DNA of 25,526 bases from a virus (lineage: Duplodnaviria; Heunggongvirae; Uroviricota; Caudoviricetes): the IMG/VR virus record IMGVR_UViG_2571042636_000011, one strand, 5' to 3'. A program made the translations under genes and the position numbers. A model generated the notes under the pieces. The model did not search any database, was not told the origin of the DNA, and saw nothing but the letters and a program-made list of their open reading frames with translations. Positions 1 to 13,574 of the stretch are shown piece by piece (positions within the stretch are counted from its first letter, which is position 1; every line of letters starts with the position of its first letter).

Positions 1-1053
1 TTACGGGGTAATGCCAACCGCTGCCGCCACTTTGTCGCCACTTGGCAGCGTTGCCAGAGGATTGAAACGAAGCGCCGTTTCCAGATGATCCGGTGCCAGA
101 TGTGCGTAACGCATAGTCATTTTTATATCGTGGTGTCCGAGAATTTTTTGTAAGGCCAGAATGTTTCCACCCGACATCATGAAGTGCGCCGCAAACGTAT
201 GGCGCAGAACGTGTGTGAGTTGACCGCGAGGGAGCACGATAGACGTTTTTTCCATCACGGATAAAAATTGAAAATAACAGTCTGTGAAGAAATTGAACCC
301 ATCAAGCGCCATGATCTCTTCGTAAAGCTCTTTACTGATAGGGATGCTTCTGTTTTTCTTCCCCTTCGTTCTTACAAAGGTAATTCGGTATTTGGTCACC
401 TGTGAGCGGGTAAGATTTACGGCTTCACGCCAGCGTGCGCCAGTGCTTAAGCATATCTTAACTACCAGTGCCAGAATTGGGTCCTGACGTTTACAATCAG
501 CCAGCAATTCAACAATCTGCTCATGGGTAAGCCATGCCATCTCTTTTTCTGCGATGGTGAATTTTCGCATGTTCTCCAGTGGGTTCGGATACGACCATTC
601 GCCCAGGCGGGATAGTTCGCTAAAAACACTACTAAGATAGCTTTGCTCCAGGTTAATAGTGACTGGGCTTGCTCCTTTTTTCCATTTCTCGCTGAAGTAG
701 ATCTCACCCGTCAGGCGTTTATCTCGATAGTGGGCAAACATTTTAGATGTGAGATCGGTTGCAAGGGGATTGCCCAGAGCGTCAACCATCAACAGCAATT
801 TGTCATAGACATGCTGCCCAGCGGTTAGAGATTTACCATGTAGTTTGAACCATAGCTCAACTACGTCTTTCAGTGTTCGACGATCCACTGATTCACCCAG
901 CCAGGGCTTTGCTTCGGTTTCTTCCATCGTGTGGCGCTCAAAAGCCAGAGCTTCGCCTTTGGTGGCGAATTGTTTACGCACACGACGCCCACTACGTCCG
1001 GCGGGGTAACATTCGCAAAGCCATTTCCCTGTGGTGAGTTTTCGTACTGCCAT
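1..1053 (-). CDS. int: Tyrosine site-specific integrase (phage 186/P2 Int family), about 350 aa
   Basis: ORF 1..1209(-). From the internal Met the protein begins MAVRKLTTGKWLCECYPAG..., which matches my recollection of the 186 Int N-terminus, so the start is placed at ATG 1053..1051 with GGAGGG about 10 nt upstream. C-terminal tyrosine-recombinase signature ...THVLRHTFAAHFMMSGGNILALQKILGHHDIKMTMRYAHL. Stop TAA at 3..1. Confidence 0.9.
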   Translation of the reverse strand: MAVRKLTTGKWLCECYPAGRSGRRVRKQFATKGEALAFERHTMEETEAKPWLGESVDRRTLKDVVELWFKLHGKSLTAGQHVYDKLLLMVDALGNPLATDLTSKMFAHYRDKRLTGEIYFSEKWKKGASPVTINLEQSYLSSVFSELSRLGEWSYPNPLENMRKFTIAEKEMAWLTHEQIVELLADCKRQDPILALVVKICLSTGARWREAVNLTRSQVTKYRITFVRTKGKKNRSIPISKELYEEIMALDGFNFFTDCYFQFLSVMEKTSIVLPRGQLTHVLRHTFAAHFMMSGGNILALQKILGHHDIKMTMRYAHLAPDHLETALRFNPLATLPSGDKVAAAVGITP

Positions 1054-1241
1054 AAAAAATGCCCTCCAGTAGAGAGCATTTTTACTGTATGTATAACCAG
1101 TGTCAATGTATGAAATCCTACGACCATACATCTCACTGAAGCCATAATGAAGTTGGCTATTCTTTTTGCTATGTGAGCATGTAACTTTTGCGGTTAACCT
1201 GCGGCTCATTTTTATTTTAGACGCAGATATAAAAGCAAAAG

Positions 1242-1433
1242 TTATCGTGAGTTTTTAGTACAGATTTTTTTGGATTTACTAATAGTTCCATCATTGCAAA
1301 CGAATTTGCCATCTGAGGTACAGTGAGAAACACCTCCCTTTTTCCCTGAGCAGGGATAATTTCTAGCATAGGTAGTTAGTGGGTTTAATAACAAAGAACA
1401 TGACAAAACCACAAAAAATACCTTACCAAGCAT
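1242..1433 (-). CDS. Small secreted cysteine-rich peptide (63-aa precursor, predicted about 40-aa mature peptide with 4 Cys); function unknown
   Basis: ATG 1433..1431 preceded by GGGAGG about 5 nt upstream on the minus strand. N-terminus [23 protein letters not shown] looks like a Sec signal peptide (basic n-region, hydrophobic core, TYA cleavage motif). Mature part [40 protein letters not shown]. Sits between cI and int in the lysogenic transcription unit. Confidence 0.5.
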
Positions 1434-1448: not shown

Positions 1449-2105
1449 CTATTTAACATACTTGACTGTTAAACTTATAATTTTACCAATTATTTCAATG
1501 TCTTCTATCTTGCATTCGAAGGCTCTGTTTCCACCCTCGACGAAGATTCTTCCACCGGGTAAACGAGTAATGTCACGGATCGTTATTTCGCCATCAATAC
1601 TTATTACCCATTTACCATCACGTATATCATCAAATTCTTTATCACAAATAAATTCAGAATTGTTATCTGTGATGACAAAAGGTTTTTTAAACGTAGAGGG
1701 TAGAAATTCCTTATCAAAAATATAAAAACCGTCTTTCTGCAATGCTCCATCAGACAATAAATATTTTTCTACTTCTATAGTATTTGTATTTGCTGATGCT
1801 TGCTTTGAACCATGCCCTGTTGTTAGCCAATTAAGCGAGGTGCCGGTTTCAAGGGCGCACTGGATTACCCAATCTGCTGGAAAAATATCACGCATATAGC
1901 GCGTTGCCATGGTGCTCTTAGAAACACCTAAATGATCACAGAGAGCCTGACGGGTACCGAACCCATATGCTTCAACTAAACGTTCTATGGCTTTCTTACC
2001 GCCGCTATTGAAATCCACAAGTCCTCCAAAGAAATCCAAAATTCGTTGACAGATTCCAAAAGCGATCTTAAAGTTGAACCAGAAGTGTTCTTTTGGAGCC
2101 TTCAC
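1449..2105 (-). CDS. cI: Immunity repressor CI (phage 186 CI type)
   Basis: 218-aa ORF. Segment ...ERLVEAYGFGTRQALCDHLGVSKSTMATRYMRD...CALETGTSLNWLTTG resembles the 186 CI N-terminal helix-turn-helix region as I remember it. Transcribed divergently from apl/cII as in 186. Start in the ORF track is GTG 2105 with no clear SD, so the exact start is uncertain. Confidence 0.8.
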   Translation of the reverse strand: MKAPKEHFWFNFKIAFGICQRILDFFGGLVDFNSGGKKAIERLVEAYGFGTRQALCDHLGVSKSTMATRYMRDIFPADWVIQCALETGTSLNWLTTGHGSKQASANTNTIEVEKYLLSDGALQKDGFYIFDKEFLPSTFKKPFVITDNNSEFICDKEFDDIRDGKWVISIDGEITIRDITRLPGGRIFVEGGNRAFECKIEDIEIIGKIISLTVKYVK

Positions 2106-2163
2106 TACTAATCACGACAAACAACGGCTCGCCACAAGCCATATCTAGAAGGAATGTTGCCTT

Positions 2164-2367
2164 ATGACACCTAACATTTCAATTACTCTGAATACACCAC
2201 ATGTCACAATCGAACGTTATAGCGAACTGACTGGCCTTTCTATTGATACGATTAACGACATGTTGGCTGATGGCCGACTACCTCGTCATCGTCTTCGTAA
2301 AGACAAAAAACGTGAAAAGGTAATGATTAACCTGGCTGCTCTGACTGTTGATGCTTTGTCTGCTTAA
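2164..2367 (+). CDS. apl: Apl/Cox-like small DNA-binding excisionase and switch regulator
   Basis: 67-aa ORF, ATG 2164, first gene of the rightward early operon opposite cI, basic C-terminus ([15 protein letters not shown]). Assignment rests on position and size by analogy to 186 apl / P2 cox, not on recognised sequence identity. Confidence 0.55.
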
Positions 2368-2431
2368 TAGACGTCTATTTTCGCAATAAGACGCTGAGTT
2401 CGATTTTGCGATAAGTTCGGAGTTGAAAACC

Positions 2432-2941
2432 ATGTTTGATTACCAAGTTTCCAAACATCCACATTTTGATGAAGCCTGTCGTGCATTCGCACTGCGCCAC
2501 AATCTGGTGCAACTGGCAGAACGTGCGGGCATGAATGTGCAGATTCTGCGGAACAAGCTGAACCCAGCTCAACCTCATTTATTAACCGCACCAGAAATCT
2601 GGCTGCTTACCGATCTGACTGAAGATTCAACGTTGGTAGATGGTTTTCTGGCACAGATTCACTGCCTGCCATGCGTACCAATTAATGAGGTGGCAAAAGA
2701 GAAACTGCCACATTACGTCATGAGTGCAACCGCAGAGATCGGGCGTGTTGCTGCAGGTGCGGTATCTGGCGATGTAAAAACCAGTGCAGGTCGTCGTGAT
2801 GCTATCAGCAGCATTAACTCTGTAACACGACTGATGGCGTTGGCTGCTGTTTCATTGCAGGCCCGTTTACAGGCTAACCCTGCGATGGCGAGTGCAGTTG
2901 ATACCGTGACTGGCCTCGGTGCTTCATTCGGTTTGCTGTGA
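2432..2941 (+). CDS. cII: CII-like lysogeny-establishment transcriptional activator (phage 186 CII type)
   Basis: Protein [49 protein letters not shown]...[25 protein letters not shown]...[21 protein letters not shown] matches my recollection of 186 CII closely. ATG at 2432 with GGAG 9 nt upstream; the ORF track begins at an upstream TTG 2423. Confidence 0.8.
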
Positions 2942-2948
2942 GGTGCTT

Positions 2949-3245
2949 ATGCTGACGAAAGAACCATCATTTGCATCGCTGCTGGTAAAACAAAGCCCGG
3001 CAATGCACTACGGTCACGGCTGGATCACGGGTGAGGATGGAAAACGCTGGCATCCATGTCATTCACAAGATGAATTGCTGTCTGAATTGACCACGAGGAA
3101 ACGGAGAAAGTCCAAATGTATGCGGCAGAAAGTGAAGTGGTTTATCAGTTTCGTTACAGAGGGGAGAGTTATTCAGTACCTGAAGATGATTTGCTCTGTT
3201 GCTATCCGTCATTGTCGGGCGATGGCAGTTACTTTTTCGCGTTAA
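2949..3245 (+). CDS. Hypothetical early protein (position of 186 fil / P2 orf78)
   Basis: ATG 2949 (MLTKEPSFASLLVKQSPAMHYGHGWITGEDGKRWHPC...) with AGGTG upstream. The N-terminal about 55 aa look protein-like; the C-terminal part (KRRKSK...) overlaps the next ORF in another frame and looks low-complexity, so the true extent is uncertain. Confidence 0.35.
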   Translation: MLTKEPSFASLLVKQSPAMHYGHGWITGEDGKRWHPCHSQDELLSELTTRKRRKSKCMRQKVKWFISFVTEGRVIQYLKMICSVAIRHCRAMAVTFSR

Positions 3246-3340
3246 AGGATGGGACGTTTTTACGGGGAGAGCAGGTTAAAGAGACGATACGAAAAAATGT
3301 ATCTCCTCTTGAGCGTTACCGTAAGAACAAAGAACGATAG
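3116..3340 (+). CDS. Hypothetical early protein, 74 aa
   Basis: ATG 3116 preceded by GGAGAAAG. Translation MYAAESEVVYQFRYRGESYSVPEDDLLCCYPSLSGDGSYFFALKDGTFLRGEQVKETIRKNVSPLERYRKNKER has normal composition. Overlaps the upstream ORF by about 130 nt in a different frame. Confidence 0.4.
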   Translation: MYAAESEVVYQFRYRGESYSVPEDDLLCCYPSLSGDGSYFFALKDGTFLRGEQVKETIRKNVSPLERYRKNKER

Positions 3341-3362
3341 CTGCGTTTGGGGGATATGAAGT

Positions 3363-3704
3363 ATGGCAATTAATGGCGCTGCAGCAACTGTTCCATTAAG
3401 CCCCGGTGAACGCCTGAATGGACTTAATCACATTGCGGAGTTAAGGGCGAAAGTATTTGGCCTGAATATTGAGTCAGAGCTTGAGCGGTTTATTAAAGAT
3501 ATGCGTGATCCACGGGATATCAATAACGAACAGAATAAACGAGCACTGGCTGCCATATTCTTTATGGCAAAAATTCCAGCTGAACGTCATAGCATCAGCA
3601 TTAATGAGCTGACCACTGACGAAAAGCGGGAGTTGATTAAAGCAATGAATCATTTTCGTGCAGTGGTGAGCTTATTTCCCAGACGGCTAACCATGCCGAA
3701 TTAA
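3363..3704 (+). CDS. Hypothetical early-operon protein, 113 aa
   Basis: ATG 3363, same orientation and tight spacing as the other early genes. No family recognised from sequence. Confidence 0.5.
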   Translation: MAINGAAATVPLSPGERLNGLNHIAELRAKVFGLNIESELERFIKDMRDPRDINNEQNKRALAAIFFMAKIPAERHSISINELTTDEKRELIKAMNHFRAVVSLFPRRLTMPN

Positions 3705-3771
3705 CCAACTAATGAAATTAATGGCGTAAACCCGCCGGGTATCCCTTTATCTAAATTCAGGAGAATTGATT

Positions 3772-4005
3772 ATGCGTAATATTGAAACCCTCAAGACTAA
3801 AACCGGACCGGATGATGCAGGGCTTAATATTTTACTGACAGAGGCTCGTCTGGAAGAACGCCGGGCAAGGGCTGAAGCAATGGCAGCTCGCCTTGATAGC
3901 CTGGCGTGTCATATCACATCCCGCCAGCTAAACCACGTCGAAGCAGCAGAACTACTGCGTGTAACTGCTGAAGCAATCCAGAACGAAGCGCAGGAGATCC
4001 ACTAA
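3772..4005 (+). CDS. Hypothetical early-operon protein, about 77 aa, predicted helical
   Basis: ATG 3772 with CAGGAG 8 nt upstream (the ORF track starts at TTG 3766). Stop overlaps the start of the next gene (TAATG at 4003..4007). Charged, helical composition (EERRARAEAMAARLDSL...). Confidence 0.5.
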   Translation: MRNIETLKTKTGPDDAGLNILLTEARLEERRARAEAMAARLDSLACHITSRQLNHVEAAELLRVTAEAIQNEAQEIH

Positions 4006-4232
4006 TGGCTGATGCAATGGATCTCGTACAGCAGCGCGTTGAAGAAGAACGCCAGCGCCATATCCGTGCTGCCCGTGCCAAAACGCCGGGCGTGTCCCGC
4101 GTGCTTTGCATTGAGTGTGAAGCGCCAATTCCGCCAGCACGCCGCCGCGCCATTCCAGGTGTGCAGCTTTGCATTACCTGTCAGGAAATCGCAGAGCTGA
4201 AAGGCAAACATTACAACGGAGGTGCTGTATGA
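4005..4232 (+). CDS. TraR/DksA-family C4 zinc-finger protein (P2 orf82-like)
   Basis: 75 aa with CxxC...CxxC (CIECEAPIPPARRRAIPGVQLCITCQ), typical of phage and plasmid TraR/DksA-like proteins. AGGAG 7 nt upstream of ATG 4005. Stop TGA overlaps the dam start (ATGA at 4229..4232). Confidence 0.7.
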   Translation: MADAMDLVQQRVEEERQRHIRAARAKTPGVSRVLCIECEAPIPPARRRAIPGVQLCITCQEIAELKGKHYNGGAV

Positions 4233-5086
4233 GCACCATCCTGAAATGGGCGGGAAATAAAACCGCCGTAATGTCCGAACTGAAAAAACATCTTCCAGCT
4301 GGCCCGCGACTGGTTGAACCTTTCGCGGGTTCCTGTGCTGTGATGATGGAGACGGATTATCCCAGCTATCTGGTTGCGGATATTAATCCTGATTTAATCA
4401 ACCTCTATAAAAAGGTTGCCGCTGATTGTGAATCGTTTATATCTCGCGCCAGAGTTTTATTTAAGGAAGCAAACAGGGAGGTGGCTTATTACAACATAAG
4501 GCAGGAGTTTAATTACTCAACTGAAATTACTGATTTCATGAAAGCGGTATATTTCCTGTATCTCAATCGTCACGGTTACCGTGGGTTATGTCGCTATAAC
4601 AAGAGCGGGCATTTCAACATTCCCTACGGTAATTATAAAAATCCGTATTTCCCTGAAAAAGAAATTCGCGCATTTGCAGAGAAAGCCCAACGAGCAACGT
4701 TTATCTGCGCCAGCTTTGATGAAACGCTGGCGATGTTGAAGGCGGGGGATGTGGTGTATTGCGATCCGCCGTATGACGGTACGTTTTCCAGCTATCACAC
4801 TGATGGTTTCACTGAAGATGACCAGTATCACCTGGCATCCGTTCTTGAACATCGGTCATCAGAAGGACATCCGGTCATTGTTTCTAACAGTGACACATCC
4901 CTGATCCGTTCGCTGTATCGCAATTTTACTCACCACTACATCAAGGCAAAACGCAGCATCGGCGTAGCAGCTGGTGAGAGTAAATCTGCAACAGAAATCA
5001 TCGCTGTTTCTGGGGCGCGCTGCTGGGTGGGATTTGATCCTTCGCGTGGCGTGGATAGTTCTGCCGTGTACGGAGTACGTGCATGA
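4229..5086 (+). CDS. dam: DNA adenine (N6) methyltransferase, Dam family
   Basis: Start [11 protein letters not shown] (Dam motif I, KWAGGK-like) with GGAGG upstream of ATG 4229. Catalytic motif DPPY present ([10 protein letters not shown]). Length about 285 aa. Stop overlaps the start of the A gene (ATGA). Confidence 0.85.
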
Positions 5087-7497
5087 GACATGCTGATATG
5101 AACAACTGCAGCGGCTTTAACGAGGCCGCCGCAGCATTCTCATGGAACAGCCCGAAAAAGGCGATTAACCCTTATCTGGACCCGGCGGAAGTTGCGCCGG
5201 TTTCTGCGCTTTCAAACCTGATCACTCTGTACGCTGCCGATAACAAGCAGGAACAACTGCGCCGCGAGGCACTGAGTGATCAGGTCTGGGAGCGTTATTT
5301 CTTTAATGAATCCCGTGATCCTGTCCAGCGCGAAATGGAGCAGGATAAGCTCATTAGCCGGGCAAAGCTGGTGCATGAGCAGCAGCGTTTTAATCCGGAC
5401 ATGGTCATACTGGCGGACGTTAACGCCCAGCCTTCCCATATCAGCAAGCCGCTGATGCAACGTATTGAATACTTCAGCAGCCTGGGCAGGCCAAAGGCTT
5501 ATTCCCGCTATTTGCGTGAGACGATTAAACCATGTCTGGAACGACTAGAGCATGTACGCGACAGCCAGCTATCTGCATCTTTTCGTTTTATGGCAAGCCA
5601 TGAAGGGCTGGACGGCCTGCTGATCTTGCCTGAAATGAGTCAGGATCAGGTGAAGCGCCTGTCTACCCTTGTTGCCGCGCATATGAGCATGTGCCTTGAT
5701 GCAGCTTGTGGTGATTTGTATGCCACCGATGACGTTAAGCCAGAAGAAATCCGCAAGACATGGGAAAGGGTGGCGGCGGAAACCCTGCGTCTGGATGTCA
5801 TCCCTCCTGCGTTTGAGCAACTCCGCCGGAAAAGAAACCGCCGTAAACCCGTACCCTATGAACTCATTCCGGGTTCGCTGGCGCGTATGTTGTGCGCCGA
5901 CTGGTGGTATCGGAAATTATGGAAGATGCGTTTCGAATGGCGGGAAGAGCAGTTGCGTGCTGTTTGCCTGGTCAGCAAAAAAGCATCTCCCTATGTCAGC
6001 TATGAAGCCGTGATGCATAAACGTGAGCAGCGCCGTAAGTCGCTGGAGTTTTTCCGTTCTCATGAACTGGTGAACGAAGACGGCGACACGCTGGATATGG
6101 AGGACGTGGTAAACGCCAGTAGTAGCAACCCGGCGCATCGCCGCAATGAGATGATGGCATGTGTTAAAGGTCTGGAGCTTATCGCGGAAATGCGCGGTGA
6201 CTGCGCCGTTTTCTACACCATCACCTGTCCGTCACGTTTCCATTCCACGCTAAATAACGGCAGGCCCAACCCGAACTGGACAAATGCGACGGTAAGACAA
6301 AGCAGTGATTATCTGGTCGGCATGTTTGCTGCATTTCGTAAGGCGATGTACAAAGCCGGATTGCGCTGGTATGGCGTGCGGGTGGCTGAGCCGCATCATG
6401 ACGGTACAGTTCACTGGCACCTGTTGTGTTTTATGCGCAAAAAAGATCGCCGCGCCATTACTGCTTTGTTGCGTAAGTTTGCCATTCGTGAAGACCGCGA
6501 GGAGCTGGGTAATAACACAGGACCACGCTTTAAGTCTGAGCTGATAAACCCGCGCAAAGGTACACCAACAAGCTACATCGCGAAATACATCAGTAAGAAC
6601 ATTGACGGGCGTGGTCTGGCTGGCGAGATCAGCAAGGAAACGGGTAAATCTCTGCGTGATAACGCTGAATACGTTAATGCCTGGGCGTCTCTGCATCGTG
6701 TTCAGCAATTCCGCTTCTTTGGCATTCCGGGGCGTCAGGCTTACCGTGAACTGCGATTGCTGGCTGGTCAGGCGGCAAGGCAACAGGGTGACAAAAAAGC
6801 AGGTGCGCCGGTACTGGATAACCCGCGCCTTGATGCCATTCTGGCTGCAGCTGATGCTGGTTGCTTTGCCACCTACATCATGAAGCAGGGCGGCGTACTG
6901 GTTCCCCGTAAATATCACCTCATCAGAACCGCTTATGAAATCAACGAAGAGCCGACCGCCTATGGCGATCACGGTATTCGTATTTATGGCATCTGGTCAC
7001 CCATTGCAGAGGGCAAGATCTGCACTCATGCAGTGAAGTGGAAAATGGTCCGTAAAGCCGTTGACGTTCAGGAGGCGGCAGCCGACCAGGGCGCTTGCGC
7101 CCCTTGGACTCGTGGCAATAACTGTCCCCTTGCTGAAAATTTGTACCAACAAGGGAAAGACAAATCAGCTGATGGAGATACCAGAACGGATATCACCCGT
7201 ATGGATGACAAGGAGTTGCACGATTACCTGCACAGTATGAGCAAAAAAGAGCGCCGGGAACTGGCAGCAAGGTTACGCCTGGTGAAACCGAAACGGCGTA
7301 AAGACTACAAACAGCGAATTACAGATCATCAGCGACAGCAGCTCGTGTATGAACTGAAGTCCAGGGGATTTGATGGCAGCGAGAAAGAGGTCGATTTACT
7401 CCTTCGCGGCGGCAGTATTCCGTCAGGAGCAGGCCTGCGTATCTTCTATCGGAACCAGCGTTTGCAGGAAGATGATAAGTGGCGGAACCTGTATTAA
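5083..7497 (+). CDS. A: Rolling-circle replication initiator endonuclease (P2 gpA / 186 RepA family)
   Basis: 804-aa ORF after the early genes. Contains an HxH metal-binding motif ([11 protein letters not shown]) and a tyrosine-containing region ([17 protein letters not shown]), as in P2 A-type nickases. GGAG 7 nt upstream of ATG 5083. Confidence 0.9.
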
Positions 7498-7589
7498 TTA
7501 CGCGGGTTAACAATTCGTGCTCTTAATAATACCAGGCATTTCTGGCTGATGAACGTAAAAAAACGTTTTACATCAGTAAGATTATTATA

Positions 7590-7609
7590 TACTGTAAATA
7601 TAAACAGTG
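7590..7609. promoter_or_regulatory. LexA (SOS) box overlapping the promoter of the tum/dinI-like operon
   Basis: tACTGTaaatataaACAGtg is a perfect CTGT-N8-ACAG with an AT-rich spacer, a close match to the E. coli LexA consensus TACTGTATATATATACAGTA. It lies about 40 nt upstream of the GGAGG/ATG at 7641..7652; -35-like TTTACA at 7567..7572. Confidence 0.6.
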
Positions 7610-7649
7610 GTTATGTATACAGTATCGCTTTGGTGTCATAGGAGGAAAG

Positions 7650-7838
7650 ATGCAGGACTATTTTTTGGAGTCTTTGAAGCTCCAGCGCATTGATTTTTTT
7701 CTTAAGCTTGTAGCGGCTAGTGAGTGTAGTGATGAAGAGAAGGGGCTGGCTCTGCAGTGGGTTTCTGAATTGACTGATGAACTCATGGCAAAAATCAGAA
7801 CCCACGAATACAACCGCTCAATGGATGTCATCAGTTGA
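7650..7838 (+). CDS. Small SOS-controlled protein, candidate Tum-like antirepressor
   Basis: 62-aa ORF directly downstream of the LexA box, GGAGG 4 nt upstream of ATG 7650. Position corresponds to the LexA-regulated tum operon of phage 186. The sequence itself is not recognised, so the function is inferred from context. Confidence 0.4.
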   Translation: MQDYFLESLKLQRIDFFLKLVAASECSDEEKGLALQWVSELTDELMAKIRTHEYNRSMDVIS

Positions 7839-7848
7839 GGTGACTTTT

Positions 7849-8082
7849 ATGCGCATTGAAATAATGATCGATAAAGAGCAGAAGATTAGCCAGTCTACCC
7901 TGGACGCCCTTGAATCCGAGCTTTACCGCAATCTGCGCCCCCTGTATCCCAAAACGGTAATTCGTATCCGCAAAGGTAGCTCTAACGGTGTGGAACTGAC
8001 CGGACTGCAACTGGATGAAGAAAGAAAACAAGTGATGAAAATTATGCAGAAAGTGTGGGAAGACGACAGCTGGCTGCATTAA
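7849..8082 (+). CDS. dinI: DinI-family protein (SOS-response modulator)
   Basis: From ATG 7849 (GAGG 8 nt upstream): MRIEIMIDKEQKISQSTLDALESELYRNLRPLYPKTVIRIRKGSSNGVELTGLQLDEERKQVMKIMQKVWEDDSWLH. This aligns along its length with E. coli DinI as I remember it (MRIEVTIAK...DALAGEL...ETWESADDW). The ORF track gives a longer ORF from 7777. Confidence 0.75.
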   Translation: MRIEIMIDKEQKISQSTLDALESELYRNLRPLYPKTVIRIRKGSSNGVELTGLQLDEERKQVMKIMQKVWEDDSWLH

Positions 8083-8193
8083 GAAACGTTGCCTCCAGGA
8101 GGATTCATTCTGATGGGGGCTAGTTTGGGCAACGAGTGAAACGAGGCGTAAGGTGGGCGGGCATTTTGATAAGTGATCGTCCGCTTTGTGCTA

Positions 8194-8213
8194 GAAGCGG
8201 TCGTTACCGCTTC
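8194..8213. terminator. Hairpin between the convergent dinI-like and HerA-like genes (possible bidirectional terminator)
   Basis: GAAGCGGT-cgtt-ACCGCTTC, a perfect 8-bp stem with 4-nt loop. Only a weak T-run follows, so intrinsic terminator function is uncertain. Confidence 0.3.
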
Positions 8214-8226
8214 AGCACTTTGTTAA

Positions 8227-10086
8227 TTAGTGAGGGCTGGTTATTACGTAGTCGCTCTGGTCATCCTCTCCCAGCCTCTCAGGTATTAAATCGTTGAAGG
8301 AAATAGTATTACTCTTAGGTTTTTCTTCAATTGGAAGTTCAGCTACCCTTAATTTGAGCGGCATGGGGCAGACGATACCACTAAAAATACAGGTTCCTGT
8401 AGATAGCGTTGGAATCGACTCTTCAGTCAGTCGATCTATATATGATACTGATTTTTCAATTGCGTACAGATCATTCTGATTAATAAGGCGATGAATAAAA
8501 TAATTGTGTGCTTGGGATATGATTGTCGACGATATATCATTAGGGCGTTGACTGGAAATTGTGATAAAAACTCCAAATTTTCTCCCCTCCTTTATGATTT
8601 CCTCAAAAGTTTCCAGACGATAATCTCTCCAACTTTCCGTTTCCCGAAAAGAAGTATTAGACAAAATATTGTGGGCTTCATCTATAATGATGTGCAGTGT
8701 AGATTTCTCTGTAGACATTTTCTTCATATTGTAAGCCCACTTGGCTATCAAAAGAGGAAGCGTTTTTTTCATGGTTATATTAACCATATTTAGATTCACA
8801 ACCGTGAAATTATGTTCACCCCAAAAGTCAGACTGTCCGGAAGTATCAAATATTTTGGCTATATCTTTACGGTTAGCACTCATTCTATTTATAACTGGTG
8901 AAATATGTTCAGGGTTAGACTTGTTAGATAAATATTCCTGTATTAACTGTAAGTACATAAAGTCCAACAGTTCTTCAATCATATCAGTTTTAAATGAAAA
9001 ATTGCTTGCAAGACTGAATAGATAGGAGCGCTCAGTATCAGCTTCTGTATTGAAAATACTACCACCCCTCAATTTCCATTTATATGCAGTTGAATGATAC
9101 TCAAGATCAGATATAAGTTCTGGGTCATCTTTGAAAATTGGGCTAAGAAACTGATTTATAGTATCGCATTTGGGTTTGTCGCTACTAAAGAGATTTTGTC
9201 TGACTTTTTTCTTCAGGATATTGCGCATAAACTCAAGAGGATTATCAGCAGTCATCACTTTCTTGCGAAACTCAAGAACTCTCTTCAGGAAAGGTTTCTG
9301 TGTTTTGTCTGTTGCATCGGTTAGAACTGAGAGCATATCATGCTCAAGTAGAACCTCTCTGGGTAGAGGAAGTTTGTCACCATTTGCATGGTGCGTGTTG
9401 AGATTATAAACCGTCTTCTCGTCAGTAATACAGCGTGGGGCAGTATATTCTCCATTAAAGTCGAATAGAATAAATTTGCATCTTTCACTAAAGTGGTTGC
9501 CGAGAATATGTTTAACTTGGGCAATACCTGCTTTGTATAGCGCGGCTAGGGTATTTGACTTTCCGCTGCCTGTATTACCGAAAATGGCAATGTGGGAATT
9601 AATAAGACCATTGATTGGTAGTGCAATTTCAATATCTTCAAGATCTGTACGAGTAAACCTCATTACAGTTTCGTCTGCATCAGCTATCTGATGAACCGTC
9701 TGTATCATCTCTTCAGTTACCACGAAGACTTCATTGCCGATGAGAGGTAGTTCACGCGAACCACCAATGAAGCAACCAGTACGATCAATGTAACCCGTAA
9801 GAGTAGAGGTCAGGTATCGCCGATATCGCCAGGCATCACTGCCGCTCCCAGCGAGATGTTTTTCCTCAATGATTCGTTCCGCTTCAACCTTGCCGATCAG
9901 GCTCATGAAACCTTTTTTGATCTCAATGAAGCTACCCACTGATACATTTCTTAGAACTTTTCCCTGATAAAACAAGTCACTGAGATTTTTGTTTTTATCG
10001 ACCAAAATTGTCACAGCGCGTCCAGAAACCTCACAGACTTCGCCTATACGGAGCACCGCTTCCTCTTCAGTAAAATGCCTGCTCAT
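8227..10086 (-). CDS. herA: HerA-like ATPase (HAS-barrel plus RecA-like P-loop NTPase), predicted partner of the upstream SIR2-like protein
   Basis: About 619 aa from ATG 10086..10084, which overlaps the SIR2 stop (ATGA); GGGAGG upstream. Walker A AIFGNTGSGKSNT and Walker B LHIIIDEAHN. N-terminal beta-rich segment (RIGEVCEVSGRAVTILVDK...GSFIEIKKGFMSLIGKVEAERI) is consistent with a HerA HAS barrel. AT-rich codon usage unlike the phage core. Confidence 0.75.
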   Translation of the reverse strand: MSRHFTEEEAVLRIGEVCEVSGRAVTILVDKNKNLSDLFYQGKVLRNVSVGSFIEIKKGFMSLIGKVEAERIIEEKHLAGSGSDAWRYRRYLTSTLTGYIDRTGCFIGGSRELPLIGNEVFVVTEEMIQTVHQIADADETVMRFTRTDLEDIEIALPINGLINSHIAIFGNTGSGKSNTLAALYKAGIAQVKHILGNHFSERCKFILFDFNGEYTAPRCITDEKTVYNLNTHHANGDKLPLPREVLLEHDMLSVLTDATDKTQKPFLKRVLEFRKKVMTADNPLEFMRNILKKKVRQNLFSSDKPKCDTINQFLSPIFKDDPELISDLEYHSTAYKWKLRGGSIFNTEADTERSYLFSLASNFSFKTDMIEELLDFMYLQLIQEYLSNKSNPEHISPVINRMSANRKDIAKIFDTSGQSDFWGEHNFTVVNLNMVNITMKKTLPLLIAKWAYNMKKMSTEKSTLHIIIDEAHNILSNTSFRETESWRDYRLETFEEIIKEGRKFGVFITISSQRPNDISSTIISQAHNYFIHRLINQNDLYAIEKSVSYIDRLTEESIPTLSTGTCIFSGIVCPMPLKLRVAELPIEEKPKSNTISFNDLIPERLGEDDQSDYVITSPH

Positions 10087-11126
10087 CTCGAGCCTCCCAG
10101 ATAGCACGTGATAATGTTATTCATTACCGGAAAATCAACATTTCTTCCCGGCCGATAAATAATCTCTACGTTTGAGTAATCCCGAAATTTCTCCATAAAG
10201 CCGTTAACACTGGCCTCATCGAAAGCAAAGATCAGTAGCTTCAGGGTGGCGTTGCGCAGGGCTTTTTTAGTTATCGTTTCAATGTGCTCATCAGCAAACG
10301 AGAACCCAAAGACAATTAGTAAAGTTGCTTCTTTATCAAGCTCGTTGGAATAGGTTCTCAGTAAATCATAATAAACGTTCTGTAGTAGAGTCTCTTTAAA
10401 CTTCTCCTTACGTGGAAGAATAAGTGCATGAGCAAGTACCCATCCTTTCATTTCGGCTAGGGTGGGAAAGTCAAGCGGCTTAATATCTGCAATACGATAA
10501 ATGATTTTCCCTTTAGAATGCTGCCAAGAGAGCGAACCATGAAGTTTTATAAGGTTAACAGTAGGAAGCTCAACTTTATAATTATACAGATTTCCGGTTG
10601 CACTTACAGAATGATTAAAGCTACCCGCATCAAATTCCGCATCTCCCAAAATACTTGCTCTTCTATTGAATCCATCATTAAAAAGAATATTGTTATTACG
10701 TGTGGCAGCTTCTTCGATGAATAAATCATAATTAGTTGTAAAAACGTTAATACGCCTCGGAAGTAGGCCAGTTCGGCGGCGGGTCAGTATCTTTTCCAGT
10801 GAAGACATAAATGCATCATAATTTGCACGGGTACATTCCAAATCGGTGATCACCTGAGGTGCGAAGGGGGTGCCGTAGCCGCGCTTCAACATGCATTCAT
10901 GAGGTAGCCAAACATCTGACAAAAAGTCAGCTGCCATCCTTAAGTATTCATCTTCCTGTTCATCATTAATAAGCTGCTGAAGATCCGTTTCGATTGTCCC
11001 CAGTACTTTAATCGCTGGGAGGGATGCACCTGATCCGATGAGAAAGTTAATGTTAGCTGACTGAAATATCCGCTCTAAGTAGTCTCGGTCACTATCGTTA
11101 CCGTAGTATGCGCGCTTGACTGCCAT
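10083..11126 (-). CDS. SIR2-like (sirtuin-fold, predicted NAD+-consuming) defence effector protein
   Basis: About 347 aa from ATG 11126..11124 (AAGGA SD; the ORF track starts at TTG 11141). Gly-rich NAD-binding loop FLIGSGASLP, the TTNYD motif (VFTTNYDLFIEEA) and a candidate catalytic His in KLHGSLSW, as in defence-associated SIR2 domains. Coupled to the HerA-like gene. Confidence 0.75.
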   Translation of the reverse strand: MAVKRAYYGNDSDRDYLERIFQSANINFLIGSGASLPAIKVLGTIETDLQQLINDEQEDEYLRMAADFLSDVWLPHECMLKRGYGTPFAPQVITDLECTRANYDAFMSSLEKILTRRRTGLLPRRINVFTTNYDLFIEEAATRNNNILFNDGFNRRASILGDAEFDAGSFNHSVSATGNLYNYKVELPTVNLIKLHGSLSWQHSKGKIIYRIADIKPLDFPTLAEMKGWVLAHALILPRKEKFKETLLQNVYYDLLRTYSNELDKEATLLIVFGFSFADEHIETITKKALRNATLKLLIFAFDEASVNGFMEKFRDYSNVEIIYRPGRNVDFPVMNNIITCYLGGSR

Positions 11127-11426
11127 CTTATCCTTCCACAAAACATTGGATTAGTCTGTAATTTATTTAATCTTAACGCCGAGCTCAATACTTTAACATC
11201 ACTTCTTCTGGCGATTGCTATGAGCCCTTCTTGATAAAAAGTTCGATCGGGAAACTGATCCTTTATGCCACAAGTTTTCTAGCTATCCTCAAAAAATTGG
11301 TGTTAAAACTGTGCCAACAAAGTTGCAAGGTTCGCTTCTCGCTCACAGCGAACTTTCATCTTTGTAAACCCGTATGATTCGCTTTTCAGCAGTCATTCAG
11401 ATACGGATTTACGCTTCCCTTGGCAG

Positions 11427-11456
11427 CGCATGACTATGACGCATGAGATCGCATGA
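11427..11456. repeat. Three direct repeats of CGCATGA at 13- and 10-nt spacing
   Basis: cgcatgactatgacgcatgagatcgcatga. Copies start at 11427, 11440 and 11450, in the non-coding region about 100 bp left of the candidate cos sequence. Function unknown. Confidence 0.4.
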
Positions 11457-11551
11457 TCGTTTAAGGATCGTTTTTGCTGAAGTCAGCCAGAACTGGCGTG
11501 CTTTTGCTTATGTCATGCAGGTGCATGAAAACCACTACATAAAGCGGGCAG

Positions 11552-11570
11552 GCGTGGCGGGGATACGAGC
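11552..11570. other. Candidate cohesive-end (cos) site of the P2/186 type
   Basis: GGCGTGGCGGGGATACGAG followed by GC-rich CGCGCGC. The first 13 nt match the start of the 19-nt P2/186 cos overhang as I remember it (P2 GGCGAGGCGGGGAAAGCAC). It lies in the prophage position between the right-end accessory genes and Q. Identification is from memory and unverified. Confidence 0.3.
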
Positions 11571-11650
11571 GCGCGCAATGCTATGATCTGGCTCTTTCAA
11601 AACTGTTAACGGTTCTTCACATTCTTAAATGATCATGGTAGCTTAAGCAT

Positions 11651-11781
11651 GCACATGTAGGCAGATTTGTTGGTTGTGGTATCGCAATCAGTGATCTAAA
11701 TGTTAGATGGATTCGCCTTCTGACATCCTTGTAGCCATTCTTGGGCTGTCCTATGCTTTGCGTAAGAGTGCCTACATGTGC
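11651..11781 (+). ncRNA. msr-msd: Retron msr-msd non-coding RNA (template for msDNA), bounded by a1/a2 inverted repeats
   Basis: 13-bp inverted repeat GCACATGTAGGCA (11651..11663) and TGCCTACATGTGC (11769..11781) flanks about 105 nt, immediately upstream of the RT gene (starts 11817), which is the canonical a1-msr-msd-a2-RT arrangement. The 5' part (CATGTAGGCAGATTTGTTGGTTGTG..ATCGCAA.CAGTG) resembles an enterobacterial retron msr that I recall. Exact ends are approximate. Confidence 0.5.
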
Positions 11782-11816
11782 CTACCCTAACTGATAATCA
11801 AGGTTGATTTTTAGAT

Positions 11817-13574
11817 ATGGCACCCCTATCAATTTTAGAACGTTTACAAAACGCTGCTAACAGGCAAGATTTGGCTAGTATCTTGAATCTTAAAACTGCT
11901 TTTCTTACGGATGTTATTTATCGTTTAAAAGCTGAAACGCAGTATACACAATTTACTATCCCTAAAAAAAACGGAGCGCCGAGAGTCATATCAGCACCTA
12001 CCACTAAGCTCAAAGATATTCAACGTAGATTAGCTGATGTTTTATATTTATGTCGTGCAGAAATTTATAAAAAATATAATATTAATCCAGTTTTATCTCA
12101 TGGGTTTGAAAAAGAAAAGTCAATTATTACGAATGCTGAACGGCATAGAGGTAAAACGCTACTACTAAATATAGACCTTGAGGATTATTTTGATAGTTTT
12201 AATTTTGGACGTGTTAGAGGTTTTTTCTTATCAAACAGAGATTTTAGATTAAATAATACTGTTGCTACAACGATCGCACAAATTGCATGTTTTCAGAATG
12301 GACTTCCTCAAGGAAGCCCATGCTCTCCAATTATAAGTAACTTAATCAGTGGAATTCTTGATATAAGATTATCAAAGTTAGCAAAGAAATACGGATGCAA
12401 TTATTCACGGTATGCTGATGATCTTACATTTTCAACTAATAAAAAAACATTTCCAAAAGAGATTGCTGATGTTGGCGGAGAGTCTGTAACCCTAAGTCCA
12501 ACTTTAATTAAAGAGATTATAAAGGCTGGCTTTAAAATAAATGATAAAAAGACAAGGGTTTGTTATAAAACATCACGACAAGATGTTACTGGGTTGACTG
12601 TTAATAAAAAAGTGAATGTTGGCAAAGAATATGCAAAAGTAACGCGTGCCATGGCTCATTCTCTTTATAAAGATGGTTCTTTTGTTATTGTTACTGAATC
12701 AGGAAAGATTGAAAAAGGTACATGTGCTAAATTAGAAGGCCGTTTTGGATTTATTGACTCAATAGATAAATATAATAATTTAAAACTAAAGAACGCAAGA
12801 CAGTTGGAAAAGTACCAAAGTGTAAATCATGGATTAAACTACACTGCAAAATTGAATTCGAGAGAAAAAGCCTACAGTTATTTTCTATACTATAAAAATT
12901 TTCATGGAATGGAAATGCCAACAATACTCACTGAGGGTAAAACAGACCGTGTATATTTAAAGTGTGCTTTGAAGTCATTGGCGAATTCATATCCTTTATT
13001 GTTTAATTCTTCTGATGATAGCTCTAAAAATGAGTATCGTGTTAATTTTTTTAAAGCAACTGAAAAAACAAGCTATTTTCTTGACATTTCTGGCGGTGCT
13101 ACAGACTTCAAAAGATTTATATTAAGATACCAAGAACAAAAAAAGAGGTTCGAGAAATTTAAACCAAAGCACCCTGTTATTATGCTTCTTGATAATGACT
13201 CAGGCCCTAAAGATTTATTAAATCACTTAAAGGATAAAGTAAAAAATTGTCCAAATGATGTTGATACTATTCGTAAGGCAAGGTATACCCACATATTTGA
13301 CAATCTCTATTTGTTATTAACACCATTGCTTCCTGGAGGGAAAGAGTCTTGTATGGAGGATTTATTTGATAGCACGGTACTATCAACGGTGCTTGATGGA
13401 AAGACATTTAATAAATCTAATGATACGGATACAAAAACAGAATATGGTAAGCATGTGTTTTCAACAAAGGTTATAAAGGCAAATTGTAAAACAATTAGTT
13501 TTGAAAAGTTTAAAGTTATTTTTGATGGTATTGAGGAAATTATTGCAGATTATTCAAAGAGGTGCAAAGTATAA
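11817..13574 (+). CDS. ret: Retron-type reverse transcriptase with a C-terminal TOPRIM-like (OLD-family-like) domain, 585 aa
   Basis: RT motifs seen in the translation: motif A LLLNIDLEDYFDSF, motif B QGLPQGSPCSPIISNL, motif C YSRYADDLTFS (YADD). C-terminal about 250 aa contain a conserved Glu motif (ILTEGKTDRVYLK) and a DxD motif (MLLDNDSGP), consistent with a TOPRIM fold. Very AT-rich codon usage. Confidence 0.9.
   Translation: MAPLSILERLQNAANRQDLASILNLKTAFLTDVIYRLKAETQYTQFTIPKKNGAPRVISAPTTKLKDIQRRLADVLYLCRAEIYKKYNINPVLSHGFEKEKSIITNAERHRGKTLLLNIDLEDYFDSFNFGRVRGFFLSNRDFRLNNTVATTIAQIACFQNGLPQGSPCSPIISNLISGILDIRLSKLAKKYGCNYSRYADDLTFSTNKKTFPKEIADVGGESVTLSPTLIKEIIKAGFKINDKKTRVCYKTSRQDVTGLTVNKKVNVGKEYAKVTRAMAHSLYKDGSFVIVTESGKIEKGTCAKLEGRFGFIDSIDKYNNLKLKNARQLEKYQSVNHGLNYTAKLNSREKAYSYFLYYKNFHGMEMPTILTEGKTDRVYLKCALKSLANSYPLLFNSSDDSSKNEYRVNFFKATEKTSYFLDISGGATDFKRFILRYQEQKKRFEKFKPKHPVIMLLDNDSGPKDLLNHLKDKVKNCPNDVDTIRKARYTHIFDNLYLLLTPLLPGGKESCMEDLFDSTVLSTVLDGKTFNKSNDTDTKTEYGKHVFSTKVIKANCKTISFEKFKVIFDGIEEIIADYSKRCKV

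What the first reader, a model, noticed from the sequence alone, without database searches (positions are those of the whole stretch)
7567..8082. LexA-controlled SOS module: near-consensus LexA box driving a small ORF plus a DinI-like gene
A perfect CTGT-N8-ACAG box (7590..7609) overlaps the promoter of a two-gene unit. The second gene is clearly DinI-like. The first, 62 aa, occupies the position of the 186 antirepressor tum but is far shorter than 186 Tum (about 146 aa as I remember it) and is not recognisable to me. The antirepressor function may be split, or carried by a novel small protein, or by the DinI-like protein itself. Either way the prophage is wired for SOS induction through LexA rather than through CI autocleavage.
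Basis: partly seen in the sequence, partly recalled or inferred. Interest (0 to 1): 0.55.

Follow-up and report, generated by a model that had tools for sequence, protein, structure and literature searches.

The report
Fels-2-type split tum SOS operon
This is the already described LexA-repressed induction operon of a Fels-2/186-like prophage, in which the 186 antirepressor gene tum is split into a small antirepressor gene and a DinI-like gene; it is ordinary, although its operator is a double, colicin-style LexA site.

Summary
A LexA box (7590-7609, 17/20 to consensus) overlaps the -10 of a promoter for two genes: a 62-aa ORF (7650-7838) and a DinI-family gene (7849-8082). The region is 97.5% identical in DNA to Salmonella phage Fels-2, and the proteins are 98% and 100% identical. 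The 62-aa protein is not a novel kind. A profile of its family matches residues 5-48 of 186 Tum (p = 6e-13), so it is the N-terminal half of Tum. The DinI-like gene is the C-terminal half (41% identity). A split tum in Fels-2 and PSP3 (tumA/tumB), with the upstream gene as antirepressor in PSP3, is in the literature (Lemire 2011, citing Bunny 2002). The repressor is 186-type, with no S24 protease domain.

I add three points:
- The operator is two overlapping LexA boxes with ColE1 geometry, conserved in 20 of 30 related loci.
- TumA is nearly invariant while the linked CI falls into 19 sequence types, which suggests a generalist antirepressor.
- A second strong LexA box lies in a promoter directly upstream of int.

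None of the protein-DNA or protein-protein interactions were tested.

The parts
7567..7572 (+). -35 hexamer TTTACA of the tum promoter, the counterpart of 186 p95
   Evidence: It lies 17 nt upstream of TACTGT. The geometry matches the annotated 186 p95. TTTACA is conserved in most of the related loci while the spacer sequence diverges. The generic promoter scan did not call it.
7590..7595 (+). -10 hexamer TACTGT, which is the first six bases of LexA box 1
   Evidence: This is by analogy with the 186 annotation, where the -10 (29044-29049) is the start of the LexA site (29044-29063).
7590..7609 (.). LexA box 1, TACTGTAAATATAAACAGTG
   Evidence: It matches the consensus at 17 of 20 positions, and no shuffle out of 100 had such a site. 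PWM score is 23.3 bits. A box is conserved at this place in 28 of 30 genome loci.
7605..7624 (.). LexA box 2, CAGTGGTTATGTATACAGTA. Its 16-bp core GTG-N10-CAG (7607-7622) shares one G with the core of box 1.
   Evidence: PWM score is 16.6 bits. The combined pattern occurs once in the window, and 1 of 100 shuffles had it. The operator matches the ColE1 cea operator at 29 of 35 positions with identical spacing. The offset of +15 nt is conserved in 20 of 30 loci.
7640..7645 (+). Shine-Dalgarno AGGAGG of tumA
   Evidence: Read directly from the sequence. AGGAGG(G) is conserved before the ATG in relatives.
7650..7838 (+). tumA-type gene, 62 aa: homologue of the N-terminal (antirepressor) half of 186 Tum, equal to Fels-2 STM2728
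   Evidence: It is 98% identical to the Fels-2 protein and matches phrog_698 at E = 3.6e-38. The family profile hits 186 Tum residues 5-48 at p = 6e-13. Median dN/dS is 0.07 at dS of about 1. AlphaFold predicts a helical hairpin with pLDDT 88.6. pI is 4.6.
7849..8082 (+). tumB-type DinI-like gene, 77 aa, with its own SD (GAGGTG, 7837-7842) 6 nt upstream
   Evidence: Pfam DinI E = 6.6e-23. It is 41% identical to 186 Tum residues 71-145, 77% to PSP3 TumB and 100% to Fels-2 STM2726.1.
8188..8224 (+). Putative intrinsic terminator: a GC-rich hairpin followed by TTTGTT, ending the operon
   Evidence: Found in the fold of 8075-8235 (z = -4.9). It lies outside the stretch shared with Fels-2, whose similarity ends at 8080, so it may belong to the neighbouring cargo.
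1449..2105 (-). 186-type CI repressor, the inferred target of TumA
   Evidence: Pfam Phage_CI_repr and Phage_CI_C match, and Peptidase_S24 is below threshold. PDB 2FJR (186 CI) matches at E = 6e-32 over both domains.
1083..1102 (.). Probable second LexA operator, lying in the spacer of a TTGACA/17 nt/AAAAAT promoter on the minus strand, 30 nt upstream of the int start codon (ATG at 1053)
   Evidence: PWM score is 23.7 bits, the best in the window. The sequence context is shown. The promoter-plus-box block is conserved in four other loci with this int type, while the DNA upstream of it is unrelated in three of them.

Best explanation
The region is the SOS operon of a Fels-2/186-like (Peduoviridae) prophage. 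In an undamaged lysogen, LexA occupies two overlapping boxes that cover the -10 and the start region of the promoter, and this silences it. DNA damage leads to LexA cleavage and to transcription of two cistrons.

The first product, TumA (62 aa, an acidic helical hairpin), is the homologue of the N-terminal half of 186 Tum. It is inferred to bind the 186-type CI repressor and stop it binding its operators, which releases the lytic promoter. The second product is a DinI-family protein, the homologue of the C-terminal half of Tum. It is inferred to act on RecA filaments and so modulate the strength or duration of the SOS signal. It is accessory, not essential.

Shown here: the sequence features, the homologies, their conservation, and the repressor type. 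Taken from the literature: LexA control of Fels-2 induction, and the antirepressor role of Tum and of PSP3 TumA. Inferred only: LexA occupancy of both boxes, TumA-CI binding, and the role of the DinI-like protein.
For: - The DNA is 97.5% identical to Fels-2 over 7480-8080. Gene order is the same: gpA, small ORF, DinI-like.
- The LexA box is significant and conserved.
- In 20-kb related loci, boxes of at least 18 bits occur almost only upstream of tumA.
- The ORF62 family profile matches 186 Tum residues 5-48 (34.8 bits, p = 6e-13). It also matches stand-alone Tum-N-like proteins of Yersinia and Erwinia phages (p = 3e-19 to 9e-11).
- The DinI-like product aligns to Tum residues 71-145.
- PSP3 is annotated with tumA ('UV induction of prophage') and tumB.
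- Lemire et al. 2011 (PMC3121763) state that Fels-2 and PSP3 have tum split by a stop codon, and that in PSP3 the upstream gene carries the antirepressor activity.
- The CI is 186-type with no S24 protease domain.
- tumA is under strong purifying selection (dN/dS 0.07).
Against: - No experiment on the Fels-2-type TumA itself was accessible. The PSP3 evidence is a personal communication cited second-hand, and PSP3 TumA is only marginally similar to ORF62 (p = 0.003).
- Pairwise BLASTP finds nothing between ORF62 and 186 Tum or PSP3 TumA.
- TumA does not co-vary with CI. Identical TumA proteins sit beside CIs that are only 36-47% identical. This is unexpected for a specific protein-protein inhibitor unless the contact surface is conserved.
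- The -10 hexamer is weak (3 of 6) and no promoter passed the generic scan.
Confidence: 0.78

Rival explanations
1. The small ORF is SOS-induced but is not the antirepressor. It has another role, for example as a partner of the DinI-like protein or as a host-directed factor. Induction, if it happens, then goes by another route.
For: TumA sequence tracks the neighbouring gpA (Spearman 0.82), not CI (0.39). In 110 of 145 locus pairs with at least 90% identical TumA, the CIs are under 50% identical. Pfam, NCBIfam and PDB have no entry for the protein. RefSeq calls it hypothetical.
Against: Its homology is to exactly the part of 186 Tum that is not DinI-like. Its position and LexA control are the same. 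It persists without the DinI-like gene in 12 of 30 loci, so it is not merely a DinI partner. Literature statements on PSP3 TumA and on Fels-2 lexA-null lethality also argue against this rival.
Confidence: 0.12
2. The DinI-like protein is the effector of induction, and the small ORF is a leader or accessory peptide.
For: In 186 the DinI-like half is part of Tum. In Gifsy prophages a dinI homologue heads the LexA-regulated antirepressor operon.
Against: The DinI-like gene is absent in 12 and disrupted in 4 of 30 loci that retain tumA; most of them also retain a LexA box. The 186 record describes the DinI-only truncated Tum products as modulators, and ascribes inhibition of CI binding only to full-length Tum. 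The ENT90 and Yersinia phages carry only a Tum-N-like gene behind the LexA box.
Confidence: 0.05
3. The two ORFs are expressed as one Tum-like fusion protein by stop-codon readthrough or frameshifting.
For: In PSP3 tumA and tumB are in the same frame, separated by one stop codon and one sense codon. In the window, the DinI frame stays open for 25 codons upstream of its ATG.
Against: Across 19 loci the two genes stand in all three relative frames (offsets 0, 1 and 2). The gap is 9-12 nt and always holds a Shine-Dalgarno sequence. The open upstream stretch varies from 1 to 25 codons. No recoding signal is conserved.
Confidence: 0.03

Closest known systems
Salmonella phage Fels-2 STM2728 / STM2726.1 (split tum region)
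   Same: DNA is 97.5% identical. The proteins are 98% and 100% identical. Neighbours upstream are the same (gpA), and the double LexA operator is the same.
   Different: Downstream cargo differs. Fels-2 has STM2726, which has the same length (732 bp) and position as 186 orf97 (homology not tested). The window has a SIR2-HerA pair and a retron-type RT instead. The CI and int regions are also of a different type: neither gave a match to the Fels-2 record at megablast level.
Coliphage 186 SOS operon (p95-tum-orf97)
   Same: The position right of gene A is the same. A LexA box forms the -10 of the promoter. There is an N-terminal antirepressor domain plus a DinI-like domain. The CI target is 186-type. 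186 also makes the DinI-like part separately from an internal GTG start.
   Different: 186 Tum is one 146-aa polypeptide, whereas here there are two cistrons. 186 has a single, stronger LexA box (27 bits), whereas here there are two overlapping boxes. TumA and Tum-N are too diverged for BLASTP.
Phage PSP3 tumA / tumB
   Same: The arrangement is split in the same way. TumB is 77% identical to the window's DinI-like protein.
   Different: PSP3 TumA is only marginally similar to ORF62 (p = 0.003). PSP3 has a single LexA box. Its two genes are in the same frame.
Colicin operators (ColE1 cea) with two overlapping SOS boxes
   Same: The geometry is identical: two 16-bp cores sharing one base pair. 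The match to the ColE1 operator is 29 of 35 positions. Such operators are reported to bind two LexA dimers and prevent untimely expression (PMC2994835).
   Different: The downstream genes are unrelated. Cooperative LexA binding here has not been tested.
Gifsy prophage dinI-gfoA/gftA operons
   Same: A LexA-repressed operon pairs a DinI homologue with a small antirepressor.
   Different: The gene order is reversed, and the antirepressor and repressor families are unrelated.

Membership tests
186 Tum-type SOS antirepressor module | LexA box overlapping the promoter -10 | tested here: met
   7590-7609 matches the consensus at 17 of 20 positions, and no shuffle out of 100 had such a site. The geometry is the same as annotated 186 p95. 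LexA binding itself was not tested.
186 Tum-type SOS antirepressor module | Homology to the N-terminal (non-DinI) half of Tum | tested here: met
   The family HMM matches 186 Tum residues 5-48 at 34.8 bits, p = 6e-13. Pairwise BLASTP was negative.
186 Tum-type SOS antirepressor module | DinI-like C-terminal part | tested here: met
   41% identity, E = 3e-24, to Tum residues 71-145. Here it is a separate cistron.
186 Tum-type SOS antirepressor module | Single 146-aa polypeptide | tested here: not met
   There are two ORFs with a 10-nt gap in different frames. This is the Fels-2/PSP3 split variant.
186 Tum-type SOS antirepressor module | Binds CI and blocks operator binding | not testable with these tools
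   This needs a gel shift or pull-down. Only the single-chain structure was predicted.
186 Tum-type SOS antirepressor module | Cognate 186-type, non-autocleaving CI in the same prophage | tested here: met
   Pfam Phage_CI_repr and Phage_CI_C match. PDB 2FJR matches at E = 6e-32.
Fels-2/PSP3 split tumA-tumB | Two adjacent cistrons behind one LexA-controlled promoter, right of gene A | tested here: met
   The proteins are 98% and 100% identical to the Fels-2 products.
DinI family (Pfam PF06183) | Score above the Pfam gathering threshold | tested here: met
   81.3 bits against a cutoff of 24.2.
Chromosomal DinI equivalog (NCBIfam NF007893) | Score above the curated cutoff | tested here: not met
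   42.7 bits against a cutoff of 111. It is a phage DinI-like paralogue, not DinI proper.
Colicin-type double SOS operator | Two LexA cores overlapping by one base pair | tested here: met
   CTGT-N9-CAGTG-N10-CAG lies at 7592-7622. It matches ColE1 at 29 of 35 positions.
Colicin-type double SOS operator | Simultaneous binding of two LexA dimers | not testable with these tools
   This needs footprinting.
Lambda-type autocleavable repressor (Peptidase S24) | S24 protease domain above threshold | tested here: not met
   16.1 bits against a cutoff of 23.3, with no stretch passing on its own.

The most novel reading that the evidence does not exclude
The Fels-2-type TumA may be a generalist antirepressor. 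One nearly invariant 62-aa acidic hairpin would inactivate many sequence types of 186-family CI by contacting a conserved surface, most likely the conserved N-terminal DNA-binding domain. SOS induction of one such prophage could then cross-induce co-resident P2/186-like prophages of other immunity types. It would sit in a three-part LexA circuit: a high-threshold colicin-style double operator on tumA, a DinI-like modulator, and a separate LexA-repressed int promoter.
Probability: 0.3. Interest if true: 0.5.

Novelty: already known. Interest (0 to 1): 0.22.

Why it matters
The module decides when a very common family of prophages leaves the chromosome. Matches to it occur in 1125 of 5426 complete E. 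coli genomes. Its small gene is still labelled 'hypothetical protein' in RefSeq and has no Pfam or NCBIfam family. The practical value here is an annotation: it is the TumA half of the 186 Tum antirepressor.

Two side observations could be tested cheaply. One is that a single TumA sequence is paired with many CI types. The other is that tumA, and in this int type also int, carry LexA operators. Both bear on cross-induction between co-resident prophages and on how the induction threshold is set. As it stands, the finding confirms known biology.

Tried and rejected
- **Pairwise BLASTP.** ORF62 against 186 Tum and against PSP3 TumA gave no alignment. Homology appeared only with a family profile.
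- **Family libraries.** Pfam and NCBIfam have no family for ORF62. PHROGs gives only an 'unknown function' family.
- **Structure.** The PDB sequence search with the family profile found nothing. Foldseek on the confident hairpin model returned only generic helical hairpins and designed proteins, all with E of at least 1, which is uninformative.
- **Promoter and RNA scans.** The generic promoter scan called no promoter. Rfam and tRNA scans of the window found nothing.
- **Locus search.** The search for related loci with the divergent alignment A1 failed for lack of a conserved stretch. A closer alignment, A2, worked.
- **Co-variation with CI.** I expected TumA to co-vary with CI as support for a specific antirepressor. 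It did not.
- **Fusion by recoding.** Readthrough or frameshift fusion of the two ORFs is rejected, because the frame relation is not conserved.
- **Literature access.** Bunny et al. 2002, the primary paper on Fels-2 tum, is not held. I could not check whether it already describes the double LexA box.
- **'Levan regulatory protein' label.** Some records give this name to ORF62 homologues. I did not test it, and nothing found here supports it.

Full report
**Context**

The window is a P2/186-like (Peduoviridae) prophage. Reading left to right it carries:
- int (true start ATG at 1053, minus strand);
- a 63-aa ORF;
- a 186-type cI (1449-2105, minus strand);
- a Cox/Apl-position ORF;
- cII (Pfam Phage_CP76);
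- DUF5347 and DUF2732 genes;
- a DksA-like zinc-finger gene;
- a Dam methylase;
- the replication gene A (5083-7497).

The finding lies directly right of gene A, where coliphage 186 has its SOS operon p95-tum-orf97.

**Observation**

The bare pattern CTGT-N8-ACAG occurs once, at 7592-7607. It is not rare by itself: 0.47 are expected, and 39 of 100 shuffles have one.

The full 20-mer TACTGTAAATATAAACAGTG (7590-7609) matches the LexA consensus at 17 of 20 positions. It is the only such site in the window, and no shuffle out of 100 had one. A PWM built from 16 E. coli operators, recalled from my own knowledge, scores it at 23.3 bits. The maximum in 200 shuffles was 19.5.

Both ORFs are as described. 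The second is a DinI-family protein (Pfam E = 6.6e-23). It falls below the cutoff for the chromosomal DinI equivalog.

The generic promoter scan found nothing. However, TTTACA (7567-7572), 17 nt and TACTGT (7590-7595) reproduce the annotated 186 p95 architecture, in which the -10 is the first six bases of the LexA site.

Immediately after box 1 lies a second box, CAGTGGTTATGTATACAGTA (7605-7624, 16.6 bits). Its 16-bp core GTG-N10-CAG shares one G with the core of box 1.

This is the geometry of colicin operators. I recalled the ColE1 sequence TGCTGTATATAAAACCAGTGGTTATATGTACAGTA from memory. It matched plasmid ColE1 exactly, about 45 nt upstream of the colicin E1 start codon. The window's operator matches it at 29 of 35 positions.

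Overlapping colicin SOS boxes are reported to bind two LexA dimers and to prevent untimely expression (PMC2994835).

In 30 related loci from other Enterobacterales species, 20 have both boxes at an offset of exactly 15 nt, although the promoter spacer and the 5' UTR have diverged. Seven have a single, usually stronger box. 186 and PSP3 each have a single box.

**Identity of the module**

The stretch 7480-8080 is 97.5% identical to Salmonella phage Fels-2. There the two genes are STM2728 ('hypothetical') and STM2726.1 ('DinI family; similar to TumB of PSP3'). The proteins are 98% and 100% identical.

PSP3 is annotated with tumA ('similar to 5' end 186 tum; UV induction of prophage') and tumB ('similar to dinI and 3' end of 186 tum').

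Lemire et al. 2011 (PMC3121763) make three statements. 186 Tum looks like an antirepressor fused to DinI. Fels-2 and PSP3 have tum split in two by a stop codon (citing Bunny et al. 2002). [quoted passage not shown] Christie, cited there).

[quoted passage not shown] I could not obtain Bunny et al. 2002 itself.

**Is the 62-aa ORF really the Tum N-terminal half?**

Pairwise BLASTP says nothing, and Pfam and NCBIfam have no family.

A phmmer search of 1.84 billion representatives found 66 relatives. Nearly all are stand-alone proteins of 50-100 aa. A profile built from 32 of them hit:
- 186 Tum residues 5-48 at 34.8 bits (per-sequence p = 6e-13);
- Yersinia phage YenM_324 (p = 3e-19);
- Yersinia phage YenM_201.16 (p = 6e-14);
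- Erwinia phage ENT90 (p = 9e-11);
- PSP3 TumA, only marginally (p = 0.003).

The three phage proteins are stand-alone Tum-N-like proteins. Each sits behind a strong LexA box and has no DinI-like gene.

The shared core is (L/I)-(Q/E)-R-(I/V)-x-(L/M)-x2-R-(L/M)-x-A-x3-C-x3-D-(K/R)-x-(L/I)-A-x2-(W/L)-x2-E-(L/I).

The gene is real. Median dN/dS is 0.07 at dS of about 1. Third codon positions are the most variable (59, against 37 and 23). The antisense ORF is interrupted in 16 of 30 relatives.

AlphaFold predicts a confident two-helix hairpin (pLDDT 88.6). The protein is acidic (pI 4.6). Fold search gave only generic hairpins.

**The DinI-like gene**

It aligns to Tum residues 71-145 (41% identity, E = 3e-24). 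It has its own Shine-Dalgarno sequence 6 nt upstream.

Across 19 loci the two genes are 9-12 nt apart and stand in all three relative frames, so there is no conserved recoding into a fusion protein.

The gene is absent in 12 and disrupted in 4 of the 30 loci. This marks it as accessory. One caveat applies: the loci were ascertained on tumA.

The 186 record likewise describes the DinI-only internal-start products as modulators of SOS induction.

**The repressor**

The window's CI has the 186 CI N- and C-terminal Pfam domains. It matches the 186 CI crystal structure 2FJR at E = 6e-32. The S24 protease match is below threshold. Induction through an antirepressor, and not through RecA-stimulated autocleavage, is the consistent reading.

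**An unexpected result**

If TumA were a specific inhibitor of its cognate CI, the two should co-vary. They do not.
- Among 27 loci, CI falls into 19 types at 70% identity.
- In 110 of 145 locus pairs with at least 90% identical TumA, the CIs are under 50% identical.
- TumA identity tracks the adjacent gpA (Spearman 0.82) much more than CI (0.39).
- Identical TumA proteins sit beside CIs that are 36-47% identical.
- A Pantoea locus (L026) pairs a 186-like CI sequence with a Fels-2-type TumA.
- YenM_201.16 has a CI 80% identical to 186 CI, but its Tum-N is only 46% identical to that of 186.

Within these CIs, the N-terminal DNA-binding domain is the most conserved part (mean top-residue frequency 0.74). 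The linker region scores 0.38 and the C-terminal end 0.62.

There are two readings. TumA may recognise a conserved CI surface, making it a generalist antirepressor. Or many of these mosaics may be mismatched. I favour the first weakly. It is untested, and it lowers my confidence in the main model only a little.

**Mechanism, with status of each step**

1. LexA represses the promoter through two overlapping boxes. The sequence and its conservation are shown; binding is inferred.
2. SOS derepresses tumA and the DinI-like gene. This rests on literature for Fels-2 and 186 and is inferred here.
3. TumA binds CI and prevents operator binding. This is shown for 186 Tum (Shearwin et al. 1998, as cited) and inferred here by homology.
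4. The DinI-like protein modulates RecA and the SOS response. This is inferred from family membership and the 186 annotation.

**Boundaries**

Similarity to Fels-2 ends at the DinI-like stop codon (8080-8082). Downstream, in place of Fels-2 STM2726 (same length and position as 186 orf97), the window carries a SIR2-HerA pair and a retron-type RT-Toprim. A strongly folding intergenic stretch contains a terminator-like hairpin at 8188-8224.

**Verdict**

The thing is already known: it is the Fels-2-type split tum operon. It is very common, with matches in 1125 of 5426 complete E. coli genomes. The modest additions are the double LexA operator, the decoupling of TumA from CI type, and a LexA box at the int promoter.

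Noticed in passing
window 1040-1110 (minus strand): The best LexA-box score in the window (23.7 bits, 1083-1102) lies in the 17-nt spacer of a promoter with a perfect -35 (TTGACA, 1106-1101) and an AAAAAT -10. It is 30 nt upstream of the real int start (ATG at 1053). The promoter-plus-box block is conserved in L007, L016, L036 and L030, which have the same int type. In L016, L036 and L030 the DNA upstream of it is unrelated. Other int types abut cI directly and have no box. In those relatives a GC-rich hairpin followed by a T-run sits between the box and the ATG. This suggests an SOS-inducible int that is uncoupled from cI.
   Followed up: partly
window 8227-11141 (minus strand): A SIR2 (10083-11141) and HerA (8227-10107) gene pair matches PADLOC models at E = 6e-211 and 6e-267. 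It is a known anti-phage defence pair. It sits in the variable slot right of the tum operon, where Fels-2 has STM2726 (same length and position as 186 orf97).
   Followed up: partly
window 11817-13574 (+): A 585-aa reverse transcriptase matches the PADLOC retron type I-C RT-Toprim model (E = 3e-223). The expected msr/msd RNA upstream (about 11150-11816) was not looked for, and Rfam found nothing in the window.
   Followed up: no
window 1242-1433 (minus strand): A 63-aa ORF lies between cI and int. It has a hydrophobic N-terminus and several cysteines ([34 protein letters not shown]...). It has no Pfam or PADLOC match and looks like a small secreted moron. Its insertion is what separates int from cI.
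   Followed up: no
loci L007-L036, regions 2000-9000: The cI gene of these prophages falls into at least 19 sequence types, while cII, gpA and tumA stay 80-100% identical. This points to frequent exchange of the immunity gene alone. L026 (Pantoea stewartii) carries a 186-like CI in an otherwise Fels-2-like early region.
   Followed up: partly
window 7827-7844 (+): A weak hairpin (GTCATC...GGTGAC followed by TTTT) spans the tumA stop codon and the Shine-Dalgarno sequence of the DinI-like gene. It could couple or limit translation of the second cistron. The junction sequence is not conserved in relatives.
   Followed up: partly
window 7650-7838 and database entries: Many database versions of this protein are 84-106 aa long because gene callers chose upstream starts. 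A few records name it 'levan regulatory protein'. RefSeq calls it 'hypothetical protein' in E. coli genomes.
   Followed up: no
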